Of a stretch of DNA of 53,746 bases, positions 32,401 to 52,518 are shown piece after piece. Location of the stretch: the IMG/VR virus record IMGVR_UViG_3300009156_000037; one strand, 5' to 3'. Both the position numbers and the translations under genes were made by a program. The stretch's first letter is position 1. The number at the start of each line of letters is the position of its first letter. The notes below the pieces were generated by a model, which had not been told where the DNA came from, made no database searches, and saw only the letters and a list, made by a program, of their open reading frames with translations. The DNA is from a virus.

Positions 32401-32682
32401 GTGACTGCATTTCGTCCCTTGGAACGTGGAGGTGAACGGTTCAGTCGTACTGTGCTGGTGCAGGCTGCCGCTATCGCCACACCAAACCTGGGGGACTTCC
32501 GTTCCCTGCGGGATATGGCTTGGGCCGATCTGCCGTATGTGTGTGTGCGCGATGAGGACGGGAACCGCTGGTTTGCCACGGTGTTGGTGCCGGGCGGCAA
32601 CGTGCGCCGGTCTCGGCAGCTGTACATGGCCCCAGTGGACATCATCGAGGTGACCGATGAACCGGCGCAGGTGGACCCATGA
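29476..32682 (+). CDS. Large minor tail protein with concanavalin/LamG-like jelly-roll segment
   Basis: 1068 aa, TGATG-coupled to the tape measure gene. The segment GWGNADVGGAWTRTGG ... STIWAKVW ... ITFDNFIV looks like a lectin-type beta-sandwich. Confidence 0.65.
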   Translation: MGSYNPNQPRIVGQEWVPIRNEDVAFSPAIKSVERGFEFTLTSAQTLQDGRFYLKEWPDGDANGQVFFMSIYPRGREADTGPIRRVVIPCNNGGISGTGVTIVPATVSVADALSDPSDEKYVHSFSGGNTTVQTRVAGYFAVNNYAQELNGKRIIGVNLLYNVSGFLDLITQSGNSWGFSIEQDSGYPNGSIYGSSIIGTVQGATWTSTFFGNGPVERLAFGEVDHAWNAPTSPENTSDRFPWTFAGLQRFEATAANRHAVWFKGSTSGPTAYEMRLHYMALEVFYCEEQRVAVAGRSFGFDSSHTTRNTPYGYGVNIVPMRTPVALATNPVLQPGDYSVVFALADQGAEYGVASQSYPKLNGLRELYSLPGMAGVQLDLPFPIDPDVVGKTFTETSTHILPQLSVHTSGGPIIDLHAYGRQAVAPVYGSIYAEAEIDDDVVPAPGAPYPWVRYYARRWGDTVTPLVLTNQAATGQSVFITPAEWDALDEIVDRWKEITLRFASPPTISTAAGSPDWRWTAAGELAGNRWEVLGAYAPALSGITGNLYNLVPSPNQLSGATYFGTNAQLTWQTITPPVSGVAADPTADGVLIFAQDMPTVTGFGISTLSQPVSGIGTNCGVNPCCIPSAISYNRLTWSASPGIVYDLFNNRTAASGWGNADVGGAWTRTGGLAADYYVQNGSAFHSLSAVNTSHYSTISNGIRDSDITVDFTVPVVALGGDIQVSVVSRYVDVNNQYMVTVFFHTNGTYDIAIRINNGGVFTTLATSGTLGGYQANSRFHVRVRTVGSTIWAKVWPYGLDELDEWQVTTVNSTITTPGGVGVNSFLAGSNTNTLPVVITFDNFIVTPIGWGSYELQRMDTVDTTWQTIMLATNPGVVSFNDYEARVGILTSYRIRGVDTYGFYGLWSVTVSATITDPGVTIGCTGGHVLIFTSNASITGGYNLAYSSVWEGRVEEGFTFPEAGEVQLQKMYGRDFVTAFRPLERGGERFSRTVLVQAAAIATPNLGDFRSLRDMAWADLPYVCVRDEDGNRWFATVLVPGGNVRRSRQLYMAPVDIIEVTDEPAQVDP

Positions 32683-34495: not shown

Positions 34496-35554
34496 GTGAA
34501 AGTCTACGTTCTACCCGCTGACGCCCATGGTTGTGGCCACTTCCGGTTGATTTGGCCAGCGAACGTGCTGCGGCAGATGGGTCATGACGTGGTCATCATG
34601 CCGCCGAACCAGCAGAGTGGCTTCCTCGCCAAGATTGAGGAGTCGGCTCCTGGGATGGAGCGGTTGAAGAGTATTCAAGTTCCAGCGGATGCCGATGTGA
34701 TTGTGTTGCAGCGGCCTGGGCATCCGCTGCAACCCCAGATGATCGACATCATGCGGGGCAACGGCATCGCTGTGGTCATCGATATGGACGACGACATGTC
34801 GTCCATTCATCAGGACAATTCAGCCTTCCACATGTACCGGCACACGTCTGGCACGCCCTTGTCGTGGAAACACGCCACTGAGTCGTGTAAGCGGGCCACC
34901 TTGGTGACCACGTCCACGTCAGCCTTGCAGAAGGTTTACGCTCAGCACGGTCGAGGCGTGGTACTTGACAACTATGTACCCGGTACGTACCTGGCCTTCA
35001 ACAAGATCGTCACTGGGCACTTCGGCTGGGCCGGCAACATTGGCTCACATCCCAACGACCCCCAGGTTACTGCCCCTGCTGTGCAGCGACTCATGGACGA
35101 CGGGTACCGTTTTGCTACGGTAGGCAACAAGAAGGGTATCAAGGAGGCATTTCGCCTCAAGCAGGACCCTTTCTGTACAGGCGCTACCGGCCTGACCGAC
35201 TTCGCCTTGACCATGAGCCGCACCTTCGACGTGGGCATGGTCCCACTGGCCGCGACCAGCTTCAACACCTCCAAGTCGAGGCTGAAGGGCATCGAAATGT
35301 CGGCCGTGGGCATCCCATGGGTTGCCTCACCCAGGGCTGAATACCGTACACTCGTCAAGAAGTCAGGGGGAGGGCTCCTTGCGGAGACCCCGAAGGAGTG
35401 GTACAACCAGCTCAGACGGCTCCTTGACGACTACGTGCTCCACAGGGAGCTGGCGGAGGCGGGCAAGTCCTACATGATGACCCAGACCTATGAGGCCAAC
35501 GCCTGGCGGTGGATCGAGGCCTGGACGAGAGCATTGGAGATACAGCGCAGATGA
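34496..35554 (+). CDS. Glycosyltransferase (GT-B / GT1-like)
   Basis: The N-terminus is MKVYVLPADAHGCGHFRLIWPANVLRQMGHDVVIM. The C-terminal half GIPWVASPRAEYRTLVKKSGGGLLAETPKEWYNQLRRLLDD resembles GT1 donor-binding blocks. SD is weak. Confidence 0.6.
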   Translation: MKVYVLPADAHGCGHFRLIWPANVLRQMGHDVVIMPPNQQSGFLAKIEESAPGMERLKSIQVPADADVIVLQRPGHPLQPQMIDIMRGNGIAVVIDMDDDMSSIHQDNSAFHMYRHTSGTPLSWKHATESCKRATLVTTSTSALQKVYAQHGRGVVLDNYVPGTYLAFNKIVTGHFGWAGNIGSHPNDPQVTAPAVQRLMDDGYRFATVGNKKGIKEAFRLKQDPFCTGATGLTDFALTMSRTFDVGMVPLAATSFNTSKSRLKGIEMSAVGIPWVASPRAEYRTLVKKSGGGLLAETPKEWYNQLRRLLDDYVLHRELAEAGKSYMMTQTYEANAWRWIEAWTRALEIQRR

Positions 35555-35868
35555 ACGATGAGGTTAAGGGATACGTGATGGCAGACAAGGATGCCATCGA
35601 GGAGTACGCCAGAATTGTGGCACAGGCCATTCATCAGGCGCATGACCAACACAACGAGACTGCCGTTCTAGATCCTGTTGAATATCTGACTGTCGACCAG
35701 GAAATCCGTGGTTTGGCAATCCAGGCTGCTTGTTCTTTTGGCGATACCGGCGGCCTCCGGACCGCGCTACTCCGCGCCGACCTGATTGCTCAGTACATCA
35801 AAACAGGTGAGATACGAATAGAGGGTACTCCTTCTGGGGATATCAATACGACGAGAGTGAGAGTGTGA
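35551..35868 (+). CDS. Hypothetical protein
   Basis: ATGA-coupled ATG at 35551. ATG 35578 is an alternative start. Confidence 0.5.
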   Translation: MNDEVKGYVMADKDAIEEYARIVAQAIHQAHDQHNETAVLDPVEYLTVDQEIRGLAIQAACSFGDTGGLRTALLRADLIAQYIKTGEIRIEGTPSGDINTTRVRV

Positions 35869-35929
35869 TGTTAGTGCACCTGCGAAAGAACAGGACCATG
35901 AATGAAAGGGCGAGAGAACAGGTATAGGA

Positions 35930-36184
35930 ATGAAATGGGAGTTTGATTCCACGCGCCGGTACCAGGGGTGGTTCAAAATCATGGACACCTGGATCCCAAT
36001 AGAAAACATTCATTCTATGGAGGTGATAGAGGACAACCGTGAGTATAGGGGTGGACAGTGGCGCATCTTCTTCAGGTTCCATCACGGTGGAGGCACCTGG
36101 GCGGACGGGTTTAGTTCGAAGGAGGAAGCTCACAGTTACATTCGAGACATGCTGGAGTTAGCGTCAAATGATTCAGCCGGGTGA
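35930..36184 (+). CDS. Hypothetical protein in a lower-GC patch
   Basis: An ORF with many A/T-ending codons, unlike its neighbours. Confidence 0.5.
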   Translation: MKWEFDSTRRYQGWFKIMDTWIPIENIHSMEVIEDNREYRGGQWRIFFRFHHGGGTWADGFSSKEEAHSYIRDMLELASNDSAG

Positions 36185-36395
36185 CTTGGTCACATTCGCG
36201 GACGGCTACCACTTCTATATCACCGTCCACGGGCCTCTGGTGACAGGAACTTGCGCCGACTGCGGCACACCAGTGGCGGTGGTCGGCTACACCGACCGGG
36301 TCAACCAGTGGGGTTTGAAGGAAGACACCGGTGGTGGGGTAGTACCCCGCTGTTCCGGATGTGCCCGTAGATTTCACGGATTGGACGAGGCATGA
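36168..36395 (+). CDS. Small zinc-ribbon-like protein
   Basis: Paired Cys motifs CADCG ... CSGC. TTG 36186 is an alternative start. Confidence 0.5.
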   Translation: MIQPGDLVTFADGYHFYITVHGPLVTGTCADCGTPVAVVGYTDRVNQWGLKEDTGGGVVPRCSGCARRFHGLDEA

Positions 36396-36694
36396 TCGTT
36401 TACATTTCCATCGGCAACAGCGACGACGTGCTCACCCAGCAAGAGTGGGCCTTATTCTGCTGTGACGTGCATGATCTCCTGATCGCAGTAGACGTGCAAT
36501 TTCACGGGAAGTGGTACTCGGCCCCAGTTTCCCGATACCAGAACGCCTGTTTCTGTGTGGAGTTTTCCCCGGCTAGGGTATCCACTGCCCACCTGATACA
36601 GGCCCTAAGGCGTTTCGCCCACAAGTACCGTCAGCAATCCATTGCCTGGGCGGAAGTGCCCATCACCGAGTTCCTGAGTCCGTCCAATGATTAG
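36392..36694 (+). CDS. Hypothetical protein
   Basis: ATGA-coupled ORF of 100 aa. Confidence 0.55.
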   Translation: MIVYISIGNSDDVLTQQEWALFCCDVHDLLIAVDVQFHGKWYSAPVSRYQNACFCVEFSPARVSTAHLIQALRRFAHKYRQQSIAWAEVPITEFLSPSND

Positions 36695-37343
36695 CGTCTT
36701 ACTGCCCAGCAGAGATCGGGTGGATCTGCTGCGACGCTCCATCGACTCCCTGTTCCGGATGGCATCTGACGAGGACAACATCGAGGTCCTGGTTGGCATC
36801 GACCAAGACGACGGGGTCACCCAGGCGGCCGTCCAATCGAACGGTATACGGATACGGCAGATCCTCGCGTACACGGCCGATGAGCGGTTTGGGTACCACC
36901 GCCTGCACGAATACTTCAACATGCTGTGGGTCCACGGTCGGGGCAACTGGTTCTTGCTCTGGAACGACGACGCGGTCATGTTGACCCCCGGCTGGGACCA
37001 CCAGCTGGACGAGCTGAGACCGGGGGTGGCTTGCCTGCATGGCAACCACGACCCGTTCAACGTGTTCCCGGCCGTGCACCGCACCGTGGTCGAGGCAATG
37101 GGCCACTTCTCCCTGTCCAACCACAACGACTCATGGCTGGTCGATGTGGCGTTGGGGGTGCCTTGCTTGCGGGACACCACCATCCAGGTGCTGCATGATC
37201 GCTTCGATCTGACTGGCAACAACAACGACACCATCTACCAGCAAAGCCGGGGAGGCTACCGCACCCTGGAGTACTACGGTCCGGAGCTATCCGAACTACG
37301 TGGCCAGGACGTGCTGAAGGTCAGGAAGGCGTTGGGGTTGTGA
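36687..37343 (+). CDS. Glycosyltransferase family 2-like (GT-A)
   Basis: ISVLLPSRDRVDLLRRSIDSL at the N-terminus and WNDDAVM (DxD-like). Confidence 0.65.
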   Translation: MISVLLPSRDRVDLLRRSIDSLFRMASDEDNIEVLVGIDQDDGVTQAAVQSNGIRIRQILAYTADERFGYHRLHEYFNMLWVHGRGNWFLLWNDDAVMLTPGWDHQLDELRPGVACLHGNHDPFNVFPAVHRTVVEAMGHFSLSNHNDSWLVDVALGVPCLRDTTIQVLHDRFDLTGNNNDTIYQQSRGGYRTLEYYGPELSELRGQDVLKVRKALGL

Positions 37344-38239
37344 AAACGGCGTTGGTGACGGGCAGCAGCGGATTCGTCGGCACCTACCTGAAACTTGCCC
37401 TGGTCGATAAGGACATCATCCCGATCAGCTACGACCTTGGTGAAGGTGACGATGTCCGTAACTACGAACGGCTGCGCTCCGTCATAGCCCACACGGATCC
37501 GGACTACATCTTCCACCTGGCCGCCCAGGCGTACGTGCCGGAGGCCACCACCGATGTGCGACGGGCCTTCGACGTGAACGTGAACGGCACCGTCAACGTG
37601 TTGGAGGCGTGTCGGCAGACTGGTTGCCAGGCCAAGATCCTGATCACGGGTACGTCGGAGGAGTACGGTTTCGTTACCCATCCTGCCAGTGAGCTGATTA
37701 CTGAGGAGTCCTGCTGTCTACCGGATACCCCGTATGGGGTGTCGAAGCTGGCCGCCAGCCAGATGGGTTTGGCATACCATCGCCTGTACGGGATGCATGT
37801 GGTGGTGACCAGGGCCTGGAACCACACCGGGCCAGGGCACAGCAGCATGTACGCCCTGCCGGCGTTCGCCCGCCGAGTGGCCGAAGTTGAGGCGGGGATC
37901 CGAGAAGAGGTTACCCACGGCAATCTGGACTCGGTGCGTAACTACACCAATGTTAACGACATCGTGAAGGCGTACCTGTTGGCCGTCGAATTGGAGCCGG
38001 GCGTGTACAACCTGTGCTCCGAGCAAACAGTGTCACTGAGGTACGCATTGGACCACCTGTGCTCGCTGGCTAATGTCGAGATTCCCCGGGTAGAGGTTAC
38101 TCACCTGTCGAGGCCACACGGCAGTTACCCACGCCCGTCGGCAGAGAAGATGTGGAACATGACAGGCTGGACAGCGCAGATCCTTCTGATGCAGACGTTG
38201 GGGGATCTGCTCAACTACTGGAGGGAACGTGTCACGTGA
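37340..38239 (+). CDS. Extended SDR, NDP-sugar 4,6-dehydratase/epimerase-like
   Basis: VTGSSGFVGTYL (Rossmann), GTSEEYG (TSE as in GDP-mannose 4,6-dehydratases), YGVSKLA (YxxxK), RAWNHTGPG. Confidence 0.75.
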   Translation: MKTALVTGSSGFVGTYLKLALVDKDIIPISYDLGEGDDVRNYERLRSVIAHTDPDYIFHLAAQAYVPEATTDVRRAFDVNVNGTVNVLEACRQTGCQAKILITGTSEEYGFVTHPASELITEESCCLPDTPYGVSKLAASQMGLAYHRLYGMHVVVTRAWNHTGPGHSSMYALPAFARRVAEVEAGIREEVTHGNLDSVRNYTNVNDIVKAYLLAVELEPGVYNLCSEQTVSLRYALDHLCSLANVEIPRVEVTHLSRPHGSYPRPSAEKMWNMTGWTAQILLMQTLGDLLNYWRERVT

Positions 38240-39429
38240 GGATCTCTGATCGTTGTCGTAGCTGCGGCAGCAACGACCTGATCCAGGTCTATGACTTGGG
38301 CGACCAGTACCTGTCTGACTTCCGGGAAGACTCCAGTAAGCCAGCAAAATTCCCGTTGACGTTGATGTTTTGTTCCCACTGCACCTTGGTGCAGTTGGCG
38401 CACACGGCGAACCGGGAGCTGCTGTACACCGACAACTATGGGTTCCGGTCGGGGGTGAATCCGGCTATCGCGGCGGACCTGAAGTCCATTGTGGACCAGG
38501 CGCTAACCTACAACGAAGCTGGGGCCTGGCTGGACATCGCCTGCAACGACGGCACCCTGCTCAGTTTCGTGCCACCTGAGCAGTGGTACCGCGTGGGCGT
38601 GGATCCGGTGGAGAAGTTCTTCGACTCGTCCAAGAACTACGCCAATGAGATTTACACGGATTACTTCGATGCAGCCGCGTTCATGGACGAGCAGTTCGAT
38701 GTGGTCACATCGATTTCGATGTTCTACGACGTGGACGACGTGAACGAGTTCGTGGCGGGGGTGGCCCGGATTCTCAGCCGTCGTGGCGTGTGGATCATCC
38801 AGCAGAACTACCTGCTCCCTATGATAAAGATCGGGGCCATCGACAACGTTTGCCACGAGCACCTCACCTACTTCAGCCTGCGTGCCCTGGTGTCATTGCT
38901 GGGCCGTTACGACCTAGAGGTCATCGACGTGTCCACCAGCGACGTCAACGGTGGCGTGCTACGCACCGTGGTGGTTCACAAGGACCGATGGCCACGCCAA
39001 TCATCGGTAGACGCCCAGTTGGAGGTTGAGGCTGGTCTGGTTCAAGCACACGTGTACCTGAACTTCGCCAACCGGGCCACCGCCAACCTAATCAAACTAA
39101 ATCAACTAATACGTACCGCTGCCAAAACCAGGGACCGTATTTTCATCTACGGTGCCTCCACAAGGGGGGCGGTGCTGTGGCAGGCCGCCGGGATCGACAA
39201 CATGGTGGTGGACTTCGCAGTGGAGCGGCAGCCAGAGAAGGTGGGTAAGTGGTACAGCCCGGTCGGGGTGCGGATCATCTCGGAGGAGCAGATGCGTCAG
39301 TTGAACCCCCACTATCTGCTGGTGGGGCCATGGTGGCATCGGGACATGTTCATGCAGCGTGAGGCCGAGTTTCTTAGCAACGGCGGGAAGATGATCTTCC
39401 CGCTTCCTTCCGTAGAGGTGGTGGGCTAG
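38236..39429 (+). CDS. NDP-hexose C-methyltransferase (TylCIII-like architecture)
   Basis: An N-terminal Zn-binding pattern CRSCGS...VYDLGDQYLSDF...FCSHCTLVQL, then a SAM-methyltransferase core and a C-terminal Rossmann-like domain. GTGA-coupled start at 38236. Confidence 0.75.
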   Translation: MRISDRCRSCGSNDLIQVYDLGDQYLSDFREDSSKPAKFPLTLMFCSHCTLVQLAHTANRELLYTDNYGFRSGVNPAIAADLKSIVDQALTYNEAGAWLDIACNDGTLLSFVPPEQWYRVGVDPVEKFFDSSKNYANEIYTDYFDAAAFMDEQFDVVTSISMFYDVDDVNEFVAGVARILSRRGVWIIQQNYLLPMIKIGAIDNVCHEHLTYFSLRALVSLLGRYDLEVIDVSTSDVNGGVLRTVVVHKDRWPRQSSVDAQLEVEAGLVQAHVYLNFANRATANLIKLNQLIRTAAKTRDRIFIYGASTRGAVLWQAAGIDNMVVDFAVERQPEKVGKWYSPVGVRIISEEQMRQLNPHYLLVGPWWHRDMFMQREAEFLSNGGKMIFPLPSVEVVG

Positions 39430-39587
39430 TGAATATTGTCTATGGATTCGTGTCCATAATCGTCATCGTAGTTGCTGTCACACTTGCTGCCGCAACAGCA
39501 GAAAACTTCGCTCAAGCGGCAGAACGCATCGGCGGCATAGCCATGCTCGCAATTGCGGCACTTCTGCTCTGGATGGTGTTCTCATGA
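39429..39587 (+). CDS. Small two-helix membrane protein (52 aa), not in the ORF track
   Basis: TAGTG coupling at the start and ATGA coupling at the end. Hand translation: VNIVYGFVSIIVIVVAVTLAAATAENFAQAAERIGGIAMLAIAALLLWMVFS. Confidence 0.5.
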   Translation: MNIVYGFVSIIVIVVAVTLAAATAENFAQAAERIGGIAMLAIAALLLWMVFS

Positions 39588-40831
39588 ACGTCGGAGTACT
39601 GGGCCTAGGACGAATGGGCTTGGTCCTAGCGGAAGCCTTTGCGGCAACTGGACGCTACGATACTTACGGCTGGGACATTGACCTAGCCGGCGTCGAGGCA
39701 CGTCTGGCCAATCCCGTAGAGGACATGCCAACAGTAGGCTTTCAGTTATCGTCTACATTGGACGAATTCGTCACGTCTGCTGAGCTGATCTTCGTATGTG
39801 TGCAGACACCACACCCACCCGGATATGACGGCAGCACCCCCCTAGACAAGGTGCCGACCAACTTCGACTACACATACCTGGTCGACGCCATCACCCGGCT
39901 AGCGTTGGTGGCACACCAGCGCCAACTGATCCGCACAGTGGGAATCATGTCCACCGTCGCCCCCGGGGCCATTGCCGCCCACATCATGAACGTGCCTCAC
40001 CGGGAATACCTGAACATCGTCTACTGCCCCAGCTTCATCAGCCTGGGCACCATCTACCACGACCTGTGCAACCCCCGCCTCATCCTGATCGGCAGCAACG
40101 ACGAGGCGACCGGTAACTTCGCCCCGTCCAGCAGGGTCACCGTGGCACTGAGGCTGCTAGCCACTGGATCCGAGGCACCGGTGGTTCACACCACCATCGA
40201 AGAGGCCGAACTGGCCAAGATGGCCAGCAACGGGCTCCAGTCCCTAAAGATCGGCTACATCAACCATCTCGCCGAGATAGCGGACCGGATGAACATCAAC
40301 ATTGACCGGGTAACTGGGGCCCTACGCGCCTCCAAAGAGGTGGCCTGGATTCCCCACGCTGGCATGGTGGATGGGGGCGCCTGTCGGCCCCGTGACCTGG
40401 TCACCATGTCCTGGTTCGAGCAGCACTGCGACACCTCCACCGCCATGTTCACGTACCTGAACATGCAGCGCGACGAACAGGCCCAACGCCTGGCGGAACG
40501 AGTAACCGCTGTGGCCTACGGGCACAGCTTGGGGGTTTGCGTCCTCGGCAAAACGTACAAGCCGGGCGTACCGTACCGAGAGGGTTCCCCCGCTGATCTG
40601 CTTCGGCACAACCTGGACGCGTTGGCGACATTGCACACCGTGGACCAGTGGGATCCTGACGTGGACGGCCCGCGCGAGTTTCGTCACCCCTGGGTGTTTG
40701 TGGTGGCTACCCCCCACGAAGCGTTCAAGGTCATGGACCACCCGTGGGGGTCGATCGTCATCGACCCCTGGAACATCGTCACCCGCAGGATAGAGGGTGT
40801 CCGTTACATCTTCCCCGGTAGGGAGCACTAA
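39584..40831 (+). CDS. Nucleotide-sugar 6-dehydrogenase (UDP-glucose/GDP-mannose dehydrogenase family)
   Basis: VGVLGLGRMGL (GxGxxG), EEAELAKMASNGLQSLKIGYINHLAEIADRMNINIDRV, and catalytic-Cys block DGGACRPRD. Confidence 0.8.
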   Translation: MNVGVLGLGRMGLVLAEAFAATGRYDTYGWDIDLAGVEARLANPVEDMPTVGFQLSSTLDEFVTSAELIFVCVQTPHPPGYDGSTPLDKVPTNFDYTYLVDAITRLALVAHQRQLIRTVGIMSTVAPGAIAAHIMNVPHREYLNIVYCPSFISLGTIYHDLCNPRLILIGSNDEATGNFAPSSRVTVALRLLATGSEAPVVHTTIEEAELAKMASNGLQSLKIGYINHLAEIADRMNINIDRVTGALRASKEVAWIPHAGMVDGGACRPRDLVTMSWFEQHCDTSTAMFTYLNMQRDEQAQRLAERVTAVAYGHSLGVCVLGKTYKPGVPYREGSPADLLRHNLDALATLHTVDQWDPDVDGPREFRHPWVFVVATPHEAFKVMDHPWGSIVIDPWNIVTRRIEGVRYIFPGREH

Positions 40832-41592
40832 TGGTCAACTTTGAGGAGCAGGTGCAGGCCTGGTCGTCGCCACCAGTTGATGACATCGGCTACATTCCAT
40901 CCAGTGACTTACTTGCTAAGACCGGGGGCGAGCTGCTGGACATCATCAGCCAGATGCGGGCTATTCGGTACAGCACCGAAGGCTGGCGCAACCGTGACAA
41001 CGCCTGGCGCGATGACCTACTCCTAGATGACACCGAAGGCAAGATCGTTCTCGACTTCGGCTGTGGTGTAGGCATGGAGGCGTTGGAGTACGCCCGGCAT
41101 GGCAACGCGGTAGCGATCGCGGACATCTCCCCCACCAACCTGCTGCTGGCAGCTCGGGTCTTCGCGCTGCACGACGAGACCCTCTACGACATCCTCCAGG
41201 TCGGGCCCTCCTACCCCTACGCCCCCGTCGCTGCCGAAATCTACGACGTGGTGCATTGCTCCGGAGTGCTGCACCACATCCCATGGGCTCAGGATGTCCT
41301 CCACTGGTTCCACGAGATCCTGATCCCAGGAGGCGAGGTCCGCCTGATGCTGTACTCCGATCGAGGCTGGCAGCTATACATGGGCTCAGAGCCGCCGGCT
41401 GACGTCACCCAGCATGGCCAGTTCCACCAGTTTGTGCGCACCTTCGACCAGGTGGGCGGGTACGCAGACTGGTACGACGAACAGAAGCTGGTAACCATGG
41501 CGGGGGACAGATTCGAGCTGGTGGCGTTCTCCTACATCACCGACAATGACCGGTACTGCATCGCGAGACTGAAGAGGAGGGAATTGACATGA
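40831..41592 (+). CDS. Class I SAM-dependent methyltransferase
   Basis: Motif I is VLDFGCGVGMEAL. Downstream are VVHCSGVLHHIP and GGEVRLM. Confidence 0.75.
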   Translation: MVNFEEQVQAWSSPPVDDIGYIPSSDLLAKTGGELLDIISQMRAIRYSTEGWRNRDNAWRDDLLLDDTEGKIVLDFGCGVGMEALEYARHGNAVAIADISPTNLLLAARVFALHDETLYDILQVGPSYPYAPVAAEIYDVVHCSGVLHHIPWAQDVLHWFHEILIPGGEVRLMLYSDRGWQLYMGSEPPADVTQHGQFHQFVRTFDQVGGYADWYDEQKLVTMAGDRFELVAFSYITDNDRYCIARLKRRELT

Positions 41593-41774
41593 TTGGGCCA
41601 ACAATCAGACAGGTGACCCTAGGTCTCGGCTCGAACCAAAGAACCAGCCTGGCATTTCTGGAGAACTTCTGTCAGGAGATGCGTTCTATGGGTGCACCCG
41701 ATGATCAAATCATCGGTCTAGAAAATTATGGCAATACCTACTACTCCCTTAGAACAGAAGTCGAGGTCCAATGA
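41589..41774 (+). CDS. Hypothetical small protein (lower GC)
   Basis: ATGA-coupled at both ends. Confidence 0.45.
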   Translation: MIGPTIRQVTLGLGSNQRTSLAFLENFCQEMRSMGAPDDQIIGLENYGNTYYSLRTEVEVQ

Positions 41775-42370
41775 TTCCTGGGATCACGGTGGCGATCCCA
41801 TGCCACCTGTCACGGATTCGTAACGGCATGCTGGGGCGGGCGATGATGTCCGTGTACTCCCAGATCTACCCGGCCGCCGGTGTCTCGATAGCCATGGACC
41901 TGGAGGGTCGTGGCGCTCCCTTCACCCGTCAGCGCGCCCTCAACGGCGTCGACACGGAGTGGGTGGCGTTTCTGGACAGCGACGACTACTTCATGGTTCA
42001 CCACCTTCAAGCCCTTTGGGAGGCGCAGCAGGAGACAGGAGCTGACTATGTCTACAGCTGGTTCCAAACCGACCCACCAGGCCATGATCCGTTCCCGAGT
42101 ACTCATTTCACGGAGCCGTGGGACAACGACAACCCCCGCCAGACGACCATCACGACGTTGGTGCGTACTGACCTGGCCCGGTCAGTCGGTTTCTGGGAGC
42201 CGAAAGATGAAGACGAGTTTCCGAATGGCCTCCGGGTGGGTGAGGACTGGATCTTCACCCTCGGCTGTCTTGAGAATGGAGCGAAGATCCATCACGTGGT
42301 GGAGCGCACATGGGTATGGGCCCACCACGGTAAGAACAGCTCGGGGCGCCCTGGTCATGGTGACGCTTGA
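41771..42370 (+). CDS. Glycosyltransferase family 2-like (GT-A)
   Basis: ITVAIPCHLSRIRNGMLGRAMMSVYSQ and the FLDSDDYF DxD motif. Confidence 0.7.
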   Translation: MIPGITVAIPCHLSRIRNGMLGRAMMSVYSQIYPAAGVSIAMDLEGRGAPFTRQRALNGVDTEWVAFLDSDDYFMVHHLQALWEAQQETGADYVYSWFQTDPPGHDPFPSTHFTEPWDNDNPRQTTITTLVRTDLARSVGFWEPKDEDEFPNGLRVGEDWIFTLGCLENGAKIHHVVERTWVWAHHGKNSSGRPGHGDA

Positions 42371-42564
42371 GTAGGCGAGAATCGTGGACCTGTGAGGCCT
42401 CCGTTGATGTGCAGACGGAGGCCCACACAGGCAAACCGCTAGTGATCATGTGCTGGAAGCCGGCTCACCTGTTCCCATTCCCCGCCCTCGGGTTCGAAAT
42501 CGCCCTCTGCCCCGACCACGAATCTGTCCTAGACAAGTACCAAGGACAAGGAAGGAAATCGTGA
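42367..42564 (+). CDS. Hypothetical small protein
   Basis: TTGA-coupled TTG start, which is uncertain. Later GTG and ATG starts are possible. Confidence 0.4.
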   Translation: MSRRESWTCEASVDVQTEAHTGKPLVIMCWKPAHLFPFPALGFEIALCPDHESVLDKYQGQGRKS

Positions 42565-43097
42565 GATATCGAAACGTGGTAGCAGCCGTTGCCATCGCCG
42601 TTCTTGCCGCCGTGGCACCCACTGCATCAGCGGCGGCAGCAGATGCCCCTCGGGAGAACATTCTTCAGATCGCGTTCTTCCGTCACTCCGGACTGTGTTT
42701 GTGGATTGACGCATCCAACCTCAACGGGGAAGACTACGTCCAAGGCGAATGTAACGACCCATCGCACGTGGAGGAGCGCTTCCAGCTCGTCCGGACCTGC
42801 TCGACCTGCCAGAGTTTCTATCTGGTCAACAACAACGGTAAGTGCATGACTGTGGCAAGCGCCGTTACCGGGAATGGTGCTGATGTCAACCAGTACACCT
42901 GCACTGCTGGTGCCTCCAACCAGTGGCTGTTTTTCGACGCGACTATCCACGCCGGATACTGGCGGATCCGATTCGCCCATTCCGGCAAGTGCGCGGCGGT
43001 TATTGCCTCGTCCCAGCTGGTCGGGACTGAGGTGCATCAGTGGACGTGCGGAGAATACGACGCTGAGGCACTGTTTTTCCGTAGCCCGTTGACCTGA
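42561..43097 (+). CDS. Secreted ricin-type beta-trefoil lectin
   Basis: GTG at 42561 follows AAGGAAGGAAATC. The signal-peptide-like N-terminus is VAAVAIAVLAAVAPTASAAAA. Three trefoil repeats each have a GxC and a Q-x-W-like element (ERFQLV, NQWLFF, HQWTCG). Confidence 0.75.
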   Translation: MRYRNVVAAVAIAVLAAVAPTASAAAADAPRENILQIAFFRHSGLCLWIDASNLNGEDYVQGECNDPSHVEERFQLVRTCSTCQSFYLVNNNGKCMTVASAVTGNGADVNQYTCTAGASNQWLFFDATIHAGYWRIRFAHSGKCAAVIASSQLVGTEVHQWTCGEYDAEALFFRSPLT

Positions 43098-43412: not shown

Positions 43413-44225
43413 ATGGCCACATTGGTCCAGCTCCAGGCTGAAGTGTGGTGGCGGAACGAATTCGTCCCCCCACCACTTCAGAAGCTCATCGTTGACCTGC
43501 GCGAGTTCTACGGGGTGCCGGCCGGCAACATCGGCTCCAAGGGCGATGAGAACCATCTGCGTGGCTACCATCGTTCCCGTAACTGGATCAAGAACTCGGC
43601 CTACTGCACCAATCGCACCTACTCGGTCAGCGAGACTCCCGGCAACCGGTCTGGCGGCAACAGCGACTGGTTATCGGCTATCGATATCACCATCCCCCGC
43701 GACGAGCTGCTCCAGATGTGCCAACGCCTCGACGTGGGAGTCCGGTCGGGGCGGTTCGAGAAGATTACCGAGTGGTACGGCAACAAGGACGGCGACACCC
43801 GAGTCGATGGGTACAACAACATCCGCAACGAGGTCGCCAGCTCCGACTCCAGTCACCTGTGGCACTGCCACATCAGCTTCGACCGTGGGGCTGTTGGCCT
43901 GGACAACCATGATGATGTGTTCGAACTGCTCACCGGAGGAGTTGACGTGCCACTTAGCGACGACAAGGACTTCAAGGCACTCATCGAGAGGGTGCAGGGA
44001 CTCCAGGGTATGGAGGATCCGATCACGTTCCAGATTGCCGGTGAACCCAGCCCCCGCAACGAAGCTAACCTGCTGGCCCAGGCCGTCAGGGATCTTCAGG
44101 CGAAGGTCGAGGCGCTCATCACGTCAGGGGTACCAGTTCCGGGCGCGGTCAACCTGACCCCGGAAAGCGTCCAGGAGGTCGCTGACGCGGTGGTCGACGA
44201 GGAGCAGGCAAGGTTGGAGAACTGA
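43413..44225 (+). CDS. Endolysin (zinc peptidase, M15-like)
   Basis: GDENHLRGYHRS, SAIDITIP and SHLWHCHISF give a His/Asp metal-ligand pattern. It lies directly upstream of a membrane protein. Confidence 0.6.
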   Translation: MATLVQLQAEVWWRNEFVPPPLQKLIVDLREFYGVPAGNIGSKGDENHLRGYHRSRNWIKNSAYCTNRTYSVSETPGNRSGGNSDWLSAIDITIPRDELLQMCQRLDVGVRSGRFEKITEWYGNKDGDTRVDGYNNIRNEVASSDSSHLWHCHISFDRGAVGLDNHDDVFELLTGGVDVPLSDDKDFKALIERVQGLQGMEDPITFQIAGEPSPRNEANLLAQAVRDLQAKVEALITSGVPVPGAVNLTPESVQEVADAVVDEEQARLEN

Positions 44226-44662
44226 TGGTCAGACAGTTCAATCTGCCGGAACGTAACCCGTGGCCCCAAGTGGTCCTGGCCTTGGGGTTGGCCGGAATCC
44301 TGGTAAGTGGGGCAGTGGTATTGCTGTCTTTAGGCCGCTCCGAGTCAGTGATCTTGACCTTGGCGGCCCTGATCGCTGGACCTGCCCTAGCCTGGTTCGC
44401 CACCAACACCAACCAGAAACTGGAGCAAGTCAAGGAGCTGTCCAACGGTTCCCTCGATCGCCGTGACACGCAGCTGGAGGACACCACCAAACGGTTGGTG
44501 GAGATGAACGAGCGGCTGCTAGCCCTGATCGCCCAGACCCATCCCAACATCCCCACCGACGTTGCGGAAAGGCTCATGCCCACAGCTAGCGTGGCCATGG
44601 AGCAGAACCCGAGCGCCCCGGTTCCTTTGGACTCCCGCGCGCAAATCACGGGACGCCTCTGA
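44225..44662 (+). CDS. Holin-like membrane protein
   Basis: TGATG-coupled to the endolysin gene. Two hydrophobic helices are followed by a coiled-coil tail. Confidence 0.55.
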   Translation: MVRQFNLPERNPWPQVVLALGLAGILVSGAVVLLSLGRSESVILTLAALIAGPALAWFATNTNQKLEQVKELSNGSLDRRDTQLEDTTKRLVEMNERLLALIAQTHPNIPTDVAERLMPTASVAMEQNPSAPVPLDSRAQITGRL

Positions 44663-44667
44663 TTGGT

Positions 44668-45012
44668 ATGACCACACATCGTCGGTACTACTTCGAACAC
44701 CCGGGAGCATGGGACAGGGACGAGGCGTACACAATCATCCTAGGACGATTACGGGATGCCTGCGAACGCAACTGGTGGTTCAACGAACCCCTGGTGCAGG
44801 GGCAACCGTTCGGCCGGCTGACGTTTGAGTTCACCGCGTCGGGGCGTGACCAATGGTGGTGTCATGTGCGGGCCATGAACTTGGCCAAGCTGTGCTACCG
44901 GGCCATTGGGATGGCCGACAGGGACGTGCCAGAGCCACTGTGGGAGCCGCTGGAACGTGATGGAGGGCGCTACCGTGTCCCCGTGACCCCCCAGGACGCC
45001 GGGGAAGGGTAG
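44668..45012 (+). CDS. Hypothetical protein, last gene of the rightward block
   Basis: ORF of 114 aa, Trp/Arg-rich. Confidence 0.5.
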   Translation: MTTHRRYYFEHPGAWDRDEAYTIILGRLRDACERNWWFNEPLVQGQPFGRLTFEFTASGRDQWWCHVRAMNLAKLCYRAIGMADRDVPEPLWEPLERDGGRYRVPVTPQDAGEG

Positions 45013-45124: not shown

Positions 45125-45300
45125 TCCCCCCTCAGGACTTGAACCGTGATGAACGCCGACTCGTCGCTGCCTAAGACAGTCTTCGTTGGGGGGCCGGAGC
45201 GCAGGTCTGGCTACCTTCGCAGGAAGGATCATGACCAGCCTTCGGGCTGAAACGTCACACGCAAAGTACCCGTTAACGCTCCCTATCATGTCTGGTGTCG

Positions 45301-45374
45301 AAGCGGGGACAGGATTCGAACCTGTGACCTCCAGATTATGAGCCTGGTGTGCTACCGAGCTGCACTACCCCGCT
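45301..45374 (-). tRNA. tRNA-Met: tRNA-Met (anticodon CAU); could alternatively be a lysidine-type tRNA-Ile
   Basis: Hand-folded cloverleaf. Acceptor AGCGGGG/CCCCGCT, D stem GTGC/GCAC, anticodon stem CCAGG/TCTGG with loop CTCATAA, T arm ACAGG-TTCGAAT-CCTGT. No encoded CCA. Confidence 0.85.
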
Positions 45375-51930: not shown

Positions 51931-52120
51931 TTAACTCCCGCTCCAACCTCTTATCCGACATGTCCATGACATAGGTATACCAAGCGACAAGTCCCGCCCA
52001 TATAGCGCCACCCACCACACACAAGTGACGATTAGCCCAAGACTGTGAGGCGTACCAGGCCACCATTGCCGACCAGGCAATAAAGATGAGGAATACAGTC
52101 AGCCTATACGCCAGACTCAT
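51896..52120 (-). CDS. Small membrane protein (two hydrophobic helices)
   Basis: ATGA-coupled ATG at 52120. Contains LTVFLIFIAWSAMVAWY and VVGGAIWAGLVAWY. Confidence 0.55.
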   Translation of the reverse strand: MSLAYRLTVFLIFIAWSAMVAWYASQSWANRHLCVVGGAIWAGLVAWYTYVMDMSDKRLERELSGKDKGRHGER

Positions 52121-52518
52121 GTCGTCCACTCCTCATCCCACGCCACCACAAATGTAGGAATTCCCGCTTCCTTCGCCTTGCGAAGACAATCCCCGGTACC
52201 TGATGAACCACCACGATGGAAACCAATCACCATGTCGGCGCCCTCATGAACCATGAGACTGTTACGGACAGGCCCCGCAGCCTTGCCGTGTGCGCGCCAA
52301 TCAGCCGGGTAGGGTTCCACAGACACCCCGTCATCGCTGCGACGGCGAGCCCACCCATCGACCAACCGGTCAGCACCAGTCGGACAGTCACCGTGAACAA
52401 CCACCAGCGGTTCACGCAGCAGATTGCACAGTTCCTTGAGTCGGTGCAGAACCGAATACACGGTCCATTCCGCCCAAGGGCCCTCCCAATGGCGGGAACC
52501 AGTGACGATAACTCTCAT
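52117..52518 (-). CDS. SLOG-superfamily protein (DUF2493-like)
   Basis: MRVIVTGSRHW ... VVVHGDCPTGADRLVDGWA ... PADWRAHGKAAGPVRNSLM ... follows AAGGAGG. Confidence 0.65.
   Translation of the reverse strand: MRVIVTGSRHWEGPWAEWTVYSVLHRLKELCNLLREPLVVVHGDCPTGADRLVDGWARRRSDDGVSVEPYPADWRAHGKAAGPVRNSLMVHEGADMVIGFHRGGSSGTGDCLRKAKEAGIPTFVVAWDEEWTT

What the first reader, a model, noticed from the sequence alone, without database searches (positions are those of the whole stretch)
34496..42370. An ~8-kb nucleotide-sugar biosynthesis and glycosyltransferase island between the tail and lysis genes
Fourteen coupled genes include three glycosyltransferases (one GT-B-like, two GT-A/GT2-like with DxD). They also include a nucleotide-sugar 6-dehydrogenase (GGACRPRD catalytic block), a 4,6-dehydratase-like extended SDR (TSE, YxxxK), a TylCIII-type NDP-hexose C-methyltransferase (Zn-finger N-domain) and a further SAM methyltransferase. 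Small membrane and unknown proteins make up the rest. Phage glycosyltransferases that decorate virions are known in mycobacteriophages. A self-contained pathway able to make a keto-deoxy, C-methyl-branched and/or uronic sugar is much more elaborate. The glycan could be put on Thr/Ser-rich virion proteins (for example the 24612-25970 N-domain) or on the host envelope.
Basis: partly seen in the sequence, partly recalled or inferred. Interest (0 to 1): 0.75.

Follow-up and report, generated by a model that had tools for sequence, protein, structure and literature searches.

The report
Phage sugar-making and glycosylation gene island
An uncultured phage of actinomycete-type bacteria carries a 7.9-kb block of seven soluble enzymes that most likely make a rare methyl-branched deoxy-sugar and a sugar acid and attach them to a target, probably its own particle, which would extend known phage "glycan coats" to home-made unusual sugars.

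Summary
The island is real and its coordinates match ORF boundaries. It holds 13 co-directional, mostly overlapping ORFs, not 14. Seven are soluble enzymes: a GT-B glycosyltransferase, two GT-A/GT2 glycosyltransferases, a TylC3/TcaB9-type sugar C-methyltransferase, an extended SDR, an NDP-sugar 6-dehydrogenase-family protein and a class-I SAM methyltransferase.

Main correction: the SDR is closest to Rmd GDP-4-keto-6-deoxymannose 4-reductases, not to GMD. It lacks two GMD features, although it keeps the TSE/YxxxK fingerprint.

The closest cellular C-methyltransferases sit next to a GMD scoring 410.6 and 414.9 bits against a 415-bit cut-off. 45 of 80 viral C-methyltransferase loci also have a GMD-type neighbour. 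The likely product is therefore a GDP-linked C-methyl-6-deoxyhexose, with the dehydratase step probably supplied by the host. The pathway is not self-contained.

The seven-enzyme set recurs in at least 8 other high-GC viral contigs. A four-gene core occurs in prophages and phages. A relative of this phage carries a different sugar module at the same locus.

No cultured actinophage in the searched collection has the C-methyltransferase, SDR or dehydrogenase. There is no detectable homology to the proven Corndog genes.

The acceptor is unproven; virion proteins are the most likely one. This is a new variant of a known kind, of moderate interest.

The parts
34496..35554 (+). GT-B fold glycosyltransferase (GT4-clan C-terminal domain), soluble. 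It is the conserved 5' anchor of the island.
   Evidence: PF13692 scores 26.7 bits against a cut-off of 27. All 10 aligned family members hit PF13692 and 7 hit PF00534. It is 35.6% identical to the annotated glycosyltransferase of Arthrobacter phage Atuin. It is 63% identical in L095 and in L177, which carries a different internal module. Maximum KD19 is 0.94.
35551..36694 (+). Four small ORFs of unknown function (35551-35868, 35930-36184, 36168-36395 with CxxC...CxxC, 36392-36694). They are probably passengers and not part of the sugar chemistry.
   Evidence: No Pfam or PHROG hits. They are only partly conserved in the close relative L004 and absent from the other cassettes. Homologues of 36168-36395 and 36392-36694 lie on the opposite strand among other genes in L177 and L178.
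36687..37343 (+). GT-A fold (GT2-like) glycosyltransferase. It is a core cassette member.
   Evidence: Homologues carry PF00535. D39, D41, D42 and N93-D94-D95 are invariant. AF2 pLDDT is 94.8. Foldseek top hits are PcManGT, TarP, SpsA and RmlT. It co-occurs with the SDR and C-MT in L004-L007, L010, L011, L095, L099, L100, L102 and L108.
37340..38239 (+). Extended SDR. It is Rmd-like (GDP-4-keto-6-deoxy-D-mannose 4-reductase-like), with GxxGxxG, TSE and YGVSK motifs.
   Evidence: PDB hits: 2pk3 at E=8e-49 and 6x3b at E=2e-41, both full length; GMD 1db3 at only 69 bits. TIGR01472 scores 81.8 against 415. It lacks the 17-residue GMD insertion and has NHTGPG instead of NHESPRRG. Sources name homologues GDP-4-dehydro-6-deoxy-D-mannose reductase.
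38236..39429 (+). TylC3/TcaB9/MtmC-type NDP-4-keto-hexose C-methyltransferase with a Cys4 zinc N-domain, a SAM domain and the C-terminal domain.
   Evidence: PF08421, PF13489 and PF08484 are present. PDB hits: 4rv9 at E=1.4e-35, 5t64 at 1.5e-28 and TcaB9 entries at about 1e-26. C7, C10, C46, C49 and H207-E208-H209 are invariant. The closest cellular homologues (50-54% identity) sit next to a GMD scoring at the gmd cut-off.
39429..39587 (+). 52-aa hydrophobic protein with two predicted membrane helices; role unknown.
   Evidence: Maximum KD19 is 2.74. No gene is called at this position in L004 or L011. The 63-aa protein at the same position in L010 is not hydrophobic by inspection of its sequence.
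39584..40831 (+). NDP-sugar 6-dehydrogenase-family enzyme (UDP-glucose/GDP-mannose dehydrogenase family). It is a divergent clade seen only on metagenomic contigs.
   Evidence: PF03721 at 56.7 bits and PF00984 at 48.2 bits. TIGR03026 scores 129.9 against 189.8. The best PDB UGDs score 59 bits. The catalytic Cys267 in GGACRPRD, K212, N216 and D271 are invariant. Only 12 relatives were found at E<=1e-10.
40831..41592 (+). Class-I SAM-dependent methyltransferase. It is probably a sugar O-methyltransferase; the substrate is unknown.
   Evidence: PF13489 at 51 bits, plus PF08241 and PF08242. The best PDB hit is UbiG-type O-MT at 40 bits. Every cassette examined that has the dehydrogenase also has this methyltransferase: L001, L004, L010, L011, L095, L099, L104 and L130.
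41589..41774 (+). 61-aa ORF of unknown function.
   Evidence: No family hit. No counterpart was found in L004 by blastp.
41771..42370 (+). GT2 (GT-A fold) glycosyltransferase with a DSDD motif. It is the conserved 3' anchor of the island.
   Evidence: PF00535 at 28.5 bits, above the 23.3 cut-off. It is 55% identical to Streptomyces phage Zuko gp106, annotated glycosyltransferase. It is 54% identical in L177.
42561..43097 (+). Predicted secreted ricin-B-type lectin (hydrophobic N-terminal segment, then a beta-trefoil). It lies just downstream and may be only loosely associated with the island.
   Evidence: PF14200 at 82.2 bits and PF00652. The N-terminal hydrophobic segment is followed by AAAADA. 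It has no counterpart in L004, which has a non-lectin 173-aa gene at this position.

Best explanation
The island is a late-expressed, cytoplasmic glycosylation cassette of an actinomycete-type siphophage.

Its conserved core has four genes: the GT-B, the first GT-A, the Rmd-like SDR and the C-methyltransferase. The core makes a GDP-linked C-methyl-branched 6-deoxyhexose (evalose/virenose type).
- GDP-4-keto-6-deoxy-D-mannose most likely comes from the host's GDP-mannose 4,6-dehydratase.
- The C-methyltransferase methylates it next to the keto group, probably at C-3.
- The SDR then reduces the 4-keto group.

An accessory trio supplies and transfers a second, hexuronic-acid residue and methylates the glycan or a donor sugar. 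The trio is the 6-dehydrogenase, the SAM methyltransferase and the second GT-A.

The three soluble glycosyltransferases assemble a short oligosaccharide on an acceptor present in the cytoplasm late in infection. That acceptor is most likely virion proteins, by analogy with mycobacteriophages Che8, Corndog and Myrna.

What is shown: gene content, folds and families, catalytic motifs, solubility, conservation of the cassette and its genomic contexts.

What is inferred: the GDP nucleotide, the position of methylation, the order of steps, dependence on host GMD, the specificity of the dehydrogenase and methyltransferase, and the acceptor.
For: Enzyme identities.

GDP-mannose route:
- The nearest cellular C-MT clade (50-54% identity) occurs in Micromonospora, Actinomadura, Spirillospora, Nonomuraea and Dactylosporangium. 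There it is directly followed by an SDR. In the two loci tested that SDR scores 410.6 and 414.9 bits on TIGR01472 (cut-off 415). In L020 an aldo/keto reductase follows.
- Of the 80 best IMG/VR C-MT loci, 45 carry a GMD-type neighbour, often with a GMER homologue.
- The cyanophage genome DSL-LC02 has GMD, C-MT, GDP-fucose synthase and then glycosyltransferases in a row.
- The SDR aligns full-length with Rmd reductases and lacks two GMD-specific features.

Core and accessory modules: the core alone occurs in L005/L030, L006/7, L098, L100, L102 and L108. All seven enzymes occur in L004, L010, L011/12 and L095. L001, L099, L104 and L130 hold five or six of the seven within loci that are cut by a contig end or by the flank limit.

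Cytoplasmic, late expression: all seven enzymes lack hydrophobic segments. No flippase, polyprenyl-phosphate transferase or GtrA/B-type gene is present. The island lies in the same uninterrupted + strand unit as the tail genes, with the only strong terminator at 45633. In L010 and L011 it also follows the tail genes.

Virion glycosylation by phage-encoded glycosyltransferases is established in mycobacteriophages (Freeman et al. 2023, as summarised in PMC12363180, PMC11256854 and PMC13313380).

A related phage, L177, has tail proteins 60-64% identical to this one. It keeps the flanking GT-B and GT2 but carries a different internal sugar module. That is the pattern expected for a surface glycan under diversifying selection.
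Against: No glycan or acceptor has been observed.

The island proteins show no detectable sequence similarity to the Corndog gp35-38 genes. None of the three glycosyltransferase tblastn searches returned a Mycobacterium phage.

The capsid and tail proteins have no obvious Ser/Thr-rich tails.

The SDR keeps the GMD fingerprint [ST]SE...Yx3K, and its Glu is conserved in at least 90% of the clade. It could therefore itself be the dehydratase.

The dehydrogenase falls below NCBIfam's trusted cut-off and its substrate is unknown.

In L006/L007 the core cassette lies next to an integrase, and L005 is a prophage. Both facts also fit lysogenic conversion of the host surface.
Confidence: 0.5

Rival explanations
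1. Same sugar chemistry, different first step. The SDR is itself a compact GMD-type 4,6-dehydratase, or a bifunctional dehydratase/reductase. The branch pathway would then start from host GDP-mannose without host GMD. The 4-keto group would be reduced by the SDR itself, by a bifunctional C-methyltransferase of the MtmC kind, or by a host reductase.
For: The SDR has the GMD fingerprint TSE...YGVSK (PMC8987622 Table 1), and the Glu is at least 90% conserved in the phage clade. The third-best PDB hit is a GDP-heptose 4,6-dehydratase (7us5, 114 bits). None of the high-GC cassettes examined carries a separate GMD, whereas most low-GC viral cassettes do. The best PDB match of the C-MT is MtmC (4rv9). 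That the S. argillaceus TylCIII-type enzyme also has 4-ketoreductase activity is stated in PMC3539893; that 4rv9 is this enzyme rests on my own knowledge.
Against: The best matches by a wide margin are two characterised 4-reductases (170 and 145 bits, against 69 for E. coli GMD), and they align end to end. TIGR01472 scores 81.8 against a cut-off of 415. The GMD insertion after beta-2 and the NHESPRRG motif are absent; instead the SDR shares NH(T/I)GPG with Rmd. The reductase 2pk3 also has SSE...YxxxK, so the motif is not diagnostic. One clade member has TSAEYG.
Confidence: 0.3
2. The glycan is put on a host cell-envelope polymer or lipid-linked precursor at the inner face of the membrane, not on virions. 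This would be lysogenic conversion or superinfection exclusion, like the prophage-encoded wall-teichoic-acid glycosyltransferase TarP of S. aureus.
For: The GT-A model matches TarP, TarS and RmlT among its best structural hits. The core cassette occurs in a Rhizomonospora prophage and lies beside an integrase in L006/L007. A predicted secreted ricin-type lectin lies next to the island. Module swapping between relatives also fits a host-surface antigen.
Against: No integrase was found among the window's called genes or larger ORFs. The island sits inside the late tail-to-45.6-kb unit without its own promoter or terminator signal. No membrane-anchored glycosyltransferase, flippase or polyprenyl-phosphate transferase is present. 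TarP-like hits reflect only the shared GT-A fold (9-15% identity).
Confidence: 0.2
3. The glycosyltransferases hypermodify phage DNA by glycosylating hydroxymethyl-pyrimidines. The sugar enzymes would supply the donors, as in phage C5-MT/5mYOX/GT clusters and in SP-15.
For: Phage DNA glycosyltransferases of GT-A and GT-B folds, with partner SDR 'epimerases' and even hexuronic-acid products, are documented (bioRxiv 10.1101/2023.12.21.572611). A UDP-glucose dehydrogenase homologue occurs in Bacillus phage SP-15.
Against: No cytosine C5-methyltransferase, TET/5mYOX dioxygenase, ThyA/ThyX-like hydroxymethylase or other base-modifying gene was detected anywhere in the window by Pfam. The island is linked to tail genes, not to replication genes.
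Confidence: 0.05
4. The dehydrogenase and the SDR act in series as UDP-glucose 6-dehydrogenase plus UDP-glucuronate decarboxylase. They would give a UDP-4-keto-pentose, which the C-methyltransferase then branches.
For: UXS-type decarboxylases are extended SDRs and appear among distant PDB hits (about 46 bits). The dehydrogenase and SDR lie in the same operon.
Against: The SDR and C-MT occur together without any dehydrogenase in the core-only cassettes. The SDR is far closer to Rmd (170 bits) than to UXS (46 bits). C-MT relatives are linked to GMD, not to UXS.
Confidence: 0.05

Closest known systems
Virion-glycosylation genes of mycobacteriophages Che8 (gp110 and neighbours), Corndog (gp35-38) and Myrna (Freeman et al. 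2023, Cell Host Microbe; known here through PMC12363180, PMC11256854 and PMC13313380)
   Same: Both are actinobacteriophage-encoded, soluble GT-A-type glycosyltransferases, with a methyltransferase in Corndog. Both lie in or beside the structural operon. The expected outcome is the same: a glycan on capsid or tail proteins made in the cytoplasm.
   Different: There is no detectable sequence similarity. To my knowledge the proven systems have no nucleotide-sugar tailoring enzymes. This island adds a C-methyltransferase, an Rmd-like SDR and a 6-dehydrogenase. The position differs: after the tail genes here, between portal and protease in Corndog.
GDP-route branched deoxy-sugar pathways: the proposed virenose pathway of Coxiella (GMD, then TylCIII-like C-MT, then reductase; PMC3539893), and the TylC3/TcaB9/MtmC C-3 methyltransferases
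   Same: The C-methyltransferase architecture is the same, with conserved Zn-Cys4 and HEH motifs. The logic is the same: methylate a 4-keto-6-deoxy sugar, then reduce C-4. The link to GDP-mannose dehydratase is seen in the nearest cellular and viral relatives.
   Different: The characterised enzymes act on dTDP-sugars in antibiotic pathways. Here the nucleotide is inferred to be GDP. No dehydratase is encoded, and the reductase is Rmd-like rather than GMER- or TylC2-like.
[quoted passage not shown]
   Same: Full-length alignment at E=8e-49 and 2e-41. The length is about 300 aa. It has no GMD insertion and shares the NHxGPG motif.
   Different: The natural substrate here would be the C-methylated keto-sugar. 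It is paired with a C-methyltransferase rather than a GMD. Its activity is untested.
Viral GMD, C-MT, GMER and glycosyltransferase modules (cyanophage genome DSL-LC02; many low-GC IMG/VR contigs), and virus-encoded GDP-sugar enzymes of chloroviruses (PBCV-1 GMD/GMER)
   Same: These are virus-encoded nucleotide-sugar tailoring genes next to several glycosyltransferases. The C-methyltransferase family is the same (30-36% identity).
   Different: Those modules carry a GMD-type neighbour and often a GMER homologue, and sit in large or low-GC genomes. The high-GC actinophage version replaces both with one Rmd-like SDR and adds a dehydrogenase.
Prophage-encoded TarP and seroconverting phage glycosyltransferases
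   Same: These are phage-borne GT-A enzymes that change a surface glycan. TarP is among the best structural matches of 36687-37343.
   Different: The match is at fold level only (9-15% identity). Those systems act on host wall polymers from prophages. Here the genes lie in the late operon and no integrase was found in the window.

Membership tests
TylC3/TcaB9-type NDP-hexose C-methyltransferase | Three-part architecture: N-terminal Zn-binding domain (PF08421), class-I SAM domain and C-terminal domain (PF08484) | tested here: met
   PF08421 at 52.9 bits (cut-off 31.3), PF13489 at 43.8 bits and PF08484 at 106.7 bits (cut-off 23.5). The alignment to 4rv9, 5t64 and TcaB9 is full length.
TylC3/TcaB9-type NDP-hexose C-methyltransferase | Four Zn-ligand cysteines and the catalytic H-E-H segment are conserved | tested here: met
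   C7, C10, C46, C49 and H207-E208-H209 are invariant in 8 phage homologues. HEHL aligns with HEHL of 4rv9.
TylC3/TcaB9-type NDP-hexose C-methyltransferase | Methylates C-3 of an NDP-4-keto-6-deoxyhexose | not testable with these tools
   Only context is available: neighbouring GMD in cellular and viral relatives.
[quoted passage not shown] | Reaches the equivalog model TIGR01472 | tested here: not met
   81.8 bits against a cut-off of 415, with the match starting only at residue 38. The GMDs next to cellular C-MTs score 410.6 and 414.9.
[quoted passage not shown] | [ST]SE...Yx3K catalytic fingerprint | tested here: met
   GTSEEYG and YGVSK are present; the fingerprint comes from PMC8987622. 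The fingerprint is not exclusive, because Rmd 2pk3 has SSE/YxxxK.
[quoted passage not shown] | Insertion after beta-2 and the NHESPRRG substrate-binding motif, as seen in the GMDs aligned here | tested here: not met
   The 17-residue insertion is absent, and the motif reads NHTGPGHS.
[quoted passage not shown] | Closest characterised relatives, aligned over the full length | tested here: met
   2pk3 at 170 bits (residues 3-296) and 6x3b at 145.5 bits (residues 5-298). JGI names the homologues as this enzyme.
[quoted passage not shown] | NAD(P)H-dependent reduction of the GDP-4-keto sugar | not testable with these tools
   No curated Rmd model appeared in the NCBIfam output. An enzyme assay is needed.
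UDP-glucose/GDP-mannose 6-dehydrogenase family | N-terminal NAD domain and central domain above Pfam thresholds; catalytic Cys, Lys, Asn and Asp present | tested here: met
   PF03721 at 56.7 bits (cut-off 27) and PF00984 at 48.2 bits (cut-off 25.4). C267, K212, N216 and D271 are invariant.
UDP-glucose/GDP-mannose 6-dehydrogenase family | Reaches the NCBIfam subfamily model TIGR03026, or any equivalog that would fix the substrate | tested here: not met
   129.9 bits against 189.8. All equivalog models score far below their cut-offs. The C-terminal PF03720 domain is not detected here and is only faint in one homologue.
Glycosyltransferase family 2 (GT-A fold) | PF00535 match or GT-A fold, with a DxD-type motif | tested here: met
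   41771-42370: PF00535 at 28.5 bits, above 23.3, with DSDD. 36687-37343: no direct hit, but homologues hit PF00535, NDD is invariant, and the confident model matches GT2 structures at E about 1e-9 to 1e-10.
GT-B glycosyltransferases (Glycos_transf_1 / GT4 clan) | C-terminal GT-B domain profile match | tested here: inconclusive
   The window protein scores 26.7 against a cut-off of 27 and has no PDB sequence hit. All 10 of 10 family members hit PF13692 and 7 of 10 hit PF00534 at E<=0.001. The single-sequence structure model was unusable (pLDDT 33).
Mycobacteriophage virion-glycosylation system (Che8/Corndog type) | Homology to the glycosyltransferases shown to be required (Che8 gp110, Corndog gp38) | tested here: not met
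   The three glycosyltransferase tblastn searches returned no Mycobacterium phage. blastp and phmmer against Corndog gp35-38 found nothing below E=0.1. Che8 itself was not compared directly.
Mycobacteriophage virion-glycosylation system (Che8/Corndog type) | Glycans demonstrated on capsid or tail-tube subunits | not testable with these tools
   This needs virions, or co-expression, plus mass spectrometry.
Phage DNA glycosyl-hypermodification clusters | Glycosyltransferases adjacent to a C5-methyltransferase/5mYOX or a ThyA-like hydroxymethylase | tested here: not met
   No such Pfam family was found on any called gene or larger ORF of the window.

The most novel reading that the evidence does not exclude
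A family of siphophages of filamentous actinomycetes coats its virions with an oligosaccharide containing a C-methyl-branched 6-deoxyhexose and a methylated uronic acid. The donors would be made by the phage's own enzymes, including a compact Rmd-like SDR that may combine dehydratase and reductase roles. Related phages would swap the sugar-tailoring module at a fixed locus to vary the glycan, much as bacteria vary O-antigens. To my knowledge this would be the first branched-chain sugar in any viral glycan, and the first evidence of serotype-like glycan diversification in phage particles.
Probability: 0.3. Interest if true: 0.75.

Novelty: new variant of a known kind. Interest (0 to 1): 0.55.

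Why it matters
Glycosylated phage particles are a recent discovery and are known only from a few mycobacteriophages. In those phages the glycan shields virions from antibodies.

This island suggests that other actinophages go further. They appear to make unusual donor sugars themselves and to exchange the sugar-tailoring module between relatives. If that is confirmed, there would be three consequences.
- It would show glycan diversification on phage particles, with effects on phage immunogenicity, stability and host interaction.
- It would provide a compact, soluble, cytoplasmic enzyme set for glyco-engineering with rare branched sugars.
- It would give a function to a large, unnoticed group of viral C-methyltransferase genes. 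At least 478 stretches in IMG/VR encode a relative.

A side result is an uncharacterised actinomycete operon (NUDIX, C-methyltransferase, GMD, aldo/keto reductase) that probably makes a related GDP-sugar.

Tried and rejected
- Megablast of the island and of 22 kb of structural genes against 50,697 phage records gave no match. The phage is only distantly related to known ones; its portal is 35% identical to that of Actinoplanes phage phiAsp2.
- The Freeman et al. 2023 paper could not be read, by DOI or by PMC id. It is cited through secondary sources only.
- Structure prediction of the GT-B failed twice. The single-sequence model had pLDDT 33 and is unusable.
- A PDB sequence search with the GT-B gave nothing. 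The second GT-A gave only weak hits.
- I tried to verify the 'lysis' genes downstream. 43413-44225 has no Pfam, PHROG, PDB or tblastn hit.
- DNA-hypermodification reading: I looked for base-modifying genes across the whole window and found none.
- UDP-glucuronate decarboxylase reading of the SDR: rejected on similarity and on cassette composition.
- Ser/Thr-rich acceptor idea for 24612-25970: its composition is not exceptional, and TRF found no DNA tandem repeat there.
- Literature searches for phage C-methyltransferases or nucleotide-sugar pathways in actinophages found no description of this cassette.
- A promoter/terminator scan showed no internal signals above chance.

Full report
**What is there**

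The window is an actinobacteriophage-type genome with GC about 0.60. It encodes a terminase, portal, MuF, a 581-aa major head protein, a tape measure and tail proteins on the + strand. It also encodes a WhiB and a prim-pol/D5 helicase. It corresponds to a 53.8-kb metagenomic contig, ENA ERZ27258587 k141_6343526.

No record among 50,697 phage genomes matches it at the nucleotide level. Its portal is 35% identical to that of Actinoplanes phage phiAsp2.

Between 34496 and 42370 lie 13 + strand ORFs, not 14. Eleven of the twelve junctions overlap by 1-17 bp. No promoter- or terminator-like signal above chance lies inside. The only strong terminator of the region is at 45633. The island is therefore part of the late unit that also contains the tail genes; 32679-33737 matches tail-protein family phrog_1887.

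The 'lysis' label of the downstream genes could not be verified.

**The seven enzymes**

1. 34496-35554 belongs to a GT-B family.
- Its own Pfam score is just under threshold (26.7 against 27).
- All ten aligned relatives hit PF13692 and seven hit PF00534.

2. 36687-37343 has no Pfam hit, yet three lines of evidence make it a GT-A enzyme.
- Homologues at 50-61% identity carry PF00535.
- The family has invariant DxDD and NDD motifs.
- A confident model (pLDDT 94.8) matches GT2 structures best: PcManGT, TarP, SpsA and RmlT.

3. 41771-42370 passes PF00535.

4. 38236-39429 has the complete TylC3/TcaB9 architecture.
- It aligns end to end with MtmC (4rv9) and TcaB9.
- It keeps the four zinc cysteines and the HEH catalytic segment.

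5. 39584-40831 has the N-terminal and central domains of the UDP-glucose/GDP-mannose dehydrogenase family.
- The catalytic Cys, Lys, Asn and Asp are invariant.
- It is divergent: TIGR03026 scores 129.9 against 189.8, and only 12 relatives were found at E<=1e-10, all metagenomic.
- Its substrate cannot be named.

6. 40831-41592 is a class-I SAM methyltransferase. Its nearest solved relatives are UbiG-type O-methyltransferases.

7. 37340-38239 is an extended SDR, discussed below.

All seven enzymes are predicted soluble. Only the 52-aa ORF at 39429-39587 is hydrophobic.

The four small ORFs at 35551-36694 look like passengers. They are missing from most related cassettes, and two of them lie elsewhere, on the other strand, in relatives.

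**The SDR: reductase-like rather than dehydratase**

Several results point the other way.
- The two best solved relatives are characterised GDP-4-keto-6-deoxy-D-mannose reductases. 2pk3 scores 170 bits and 6x3b scores 145 bits, both aligned over the whole length. E. coli GMD scores 69 bits.
- The gmd equivalog model gives 81.8 bits against a cut-off of 415, and the match starts only at residue 38.
- In an alignment with two GMDs, the phage clade lacks the 17-residue insertion after beta-2.
- In the same alignment it reads NHTGPG where the GMDs read NHESPRRG. The Rmd structures read NHIGPG.
- The reductase 2pk3 itself has SSE/YxxxK, so the fingerprint does not discriminate.

I therefore read the SDR as Rmd-like. 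I keep the dehydratase or bifunctional reading as a live rival at about 0.3, because the Glu is conserved in at least 90% of the clade and no high-GC cassette encodes a separate GMD.

**Which nucleotide sugar**

Three independent contexts tie this C-methyltransferase lineage to GDP-mannose chemistry.

(a) A scan of 185,579 species genomes found a tight clade at 50-54% identity in Micromonospora, Actinomadura, Spirillospora, Nonomuraea, Dactylosporangium and relatives. Identity then drops to 41% or less.
- In most of those chromosomal loci the C-MT is followed directly by another SDR.
- In the two loci tested, that SDR scores 410.6 and 414.9 bits on TIGR01472, whose cut-off is 415.
- In Nonomuraea locus L020 the operon reads NUDIX, C-MT, GMD, aldo/keto reductase, and a GT1 and a P450 lie nearby.

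(b) In IMG/VR at least 478 stretches encode a relative.
- Of the 80 best loci, 45 have a GMD-type neighbour (mean GC 0.37), often with a GDP-fucose-synthase homologue.
- Eight have the Rmd-like SDR directly upstream and no GMD (mean GC 0.64).

(c) The cyanophage genome DSL-LC02 has GMD, C-MT, GDP-L-fucose synthase and five glycosyltransferases in a row. Its authors read this as GDP-fucose synthesis and did not mention the methyltransferase in the passages I read.

The logic is the one proposed for virenose in Coxiella: GMD, then a TylCIII-like methyltransferase, then a reductase (PMC3539893).

The most economical scheme for the island follows.
- Host GMD supplies GDP-4-keto-6-deoxy-D-mannose.
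- The phage C-MT methylates it, probably at C-3.
- The Rmd-like SDR reduces C-4 to give a GDP-6-deoxy-3-C-methylhexose.

These steps are inferred, not shown.

**Modularity and distribution**

The core four are the GT-B, the first GT-A, the SDR and the C-MT. They occur without the others in a Rhizomonospora bruguierae prophage (L005/L030), in two JGI phage contigs (L006/7), and at least in part in L098, L100, L102 and L108.

The dehydrogenase, the SAM methyltransferase and the second GT-A are added in other contigs.
- L004 is a close relative, 71-90% identical.
- L010, L011/12 and L095 also hold all seven enzymes.
- L001, L099, L104 and L130 hold five or six of the seven within cut loci.
- Gene order is shuffled between these contigs.
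- In L010 and L011 the cassette again follows the tail genes.

The added trio is most simply read as supplying, transferring and methylating a uronic-acid residue. This is inference from co-occurrence.

A relative of the window phage, L177, has tail proteins 60-64% identical to this one. At the same locus it carries a GT-B (63% identical) and a GT2 (54% identical). The interior differs: a Methyltransf_24 enzyme, another SDR and a TOD1/MUCI70-like transferase. The locus therefore behaves as a variable glycan island with conserved ends.

**Relation to known systems**

Among cultured phages, only subsets of the glycosyltransferases are found, in the Arthrobacter jumbo phages Atuin, Mimi and Racecar and in Streptomyces phages Zuko and KimJongPhill. 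No cultured actinophage in the collection has the C-MT, the Rmd-like SDR or the dehydrogenase.

Virion glycosylation by phage-encoded glycosyltransferases is established for Che8, Corndog and Myrna. The island proteins show no detectable similarity to Corndog gp35-38. None of the three glycosyltransferase tblastn searches returned a Mycobacterium phage. The resemblance is therefore functional analogy, not membership.

**The acceptor**

Nothing in the sequence proves the acceptor. Several features favour virion proteins, at about 0.5 overall:
- the location in the late operon;
- soluble enzymes;
- the absence of flippase, polyprenyl-phosphate or Gtr-type genes;
- the absence of an integrase in the window;
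- the mycobacteriophage precedent.

Modification of a host wall polymer, as by prophage TarP, remains possible at about 0.2. The core cassette occurs in prophages and beside an integrase.

DNA glycosylation is unlikely at about 0.05. No base-modifying enzyme was found in the window, and such enzymes define those clusters.

**Verdict**

The island is a new variant of a known kind, phage glycosylation and nucleotide-sugar cassettes. It belongs to a recurrent, undescribed actinophage cassette family. Interest is 0.55.

Noticed in passing
window 42561-43097 (+): A predicted secreted ricin-B-type lectin (hydrophobic N-terminal segment, then beta-trefoil; PF14200 at 82 bits) lies between the island and the putative lysis genes. 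The close relative L004 has an unrelated 173-aa gene at this position. Whether the lectin binds the island's glycan or a host glycan is unknown.
   Followed up: partly
L177 3448-9668 (IMGVR_UViG_3300036852_000085): A relative of the window phage carries a different sugar module at the same locus: Methyltransf_24, another SDR and a TOD1/MUCI70-like transferase. The module lies between conserved GT-B and GT2 genes. This is module swapping, as seen in bacterial surface-polysaccharide loci.
   Followed up: partly
L020 7415-11052 (Nonomuraea sp. NBC_01738); similar C-MT plus adjacent SDR in L013-L019, L021-L024, L027, L032 and L053: A chromosomal operon reads NUDIX, C-methyltransferase, GMD (at the gmd cut-off) and aldo/keto reductase, with a GT1 (EryCIII-like) and a P450 nearby. 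It probably makes a GDP-linked C-methyl-deoxyhexose for an unknown glycoside.
   Followed up: partly
IMG/VR loci L095-L174; L093 (Synechococcus phage DSL-LC02, record 100148-102407): TylC3-type C-methyltransferases are common in viral contigs; at least 478 stretches encode a relative. In low-GC contigs they usually lie beside a GMD-type gene and often a GDP-fucose-synthase homologue. In DSL-LC02 the published description reads the flanking genes as GDP-fucose synthesis and does not mention the methyltransferase in the passages read.
   Followed up: partly
window 15072-19376 (+): A 1434-aa protein lies between the MuF-like/DUF6582 genes and the major head protein. It has weak ADP-ribosyltransferase-exoenzyme (residues 96-204), Rho_N-like and endonuclease-VII-like (residues 822-874) segments. 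It may be a large virion-associated or ejected multi-domain protein.
   Followed up: no
window 24612-25970 (+): The 452-aa protein has two adjacent near-identical copies, about 22 residues each, of ITPDSLTVPITLGAP(T/Q)V(S/T)Q. Only its C-terminal domain matches an unknown PHROG (phrog_810). TRF reports no DNA tandem repeat at its default score threshold.
   Followed up: partly
window 43413-45012 (+): The genes read as 'lysis' have no detectable relatives in Pfam, PHROGs, the PDB or 50,697 phage genomes. By eye, 43413-44225 has an H...D...HxH pattern reminiscent of LAS-type zinc peptidases. 44225-44662 has a strongly hydrophobic segment.
   Followed up: partly
window 45300-45374 (-): A single tRNA-Met (CAT) gene lies at the junction between the rightward late genes and the leftward genes, close to the strong terminator at 45633.
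   Followed up: no
window 29476-32682 (+) and 52117-52635 (-): The 1068-aa tail-region protein has a phosphodiesterase-like segment (phrog_24476, residues 644-847). A 172-aa leftward gene carries a YspA/SLOG-family domain (PF10686).
   Followed up: no
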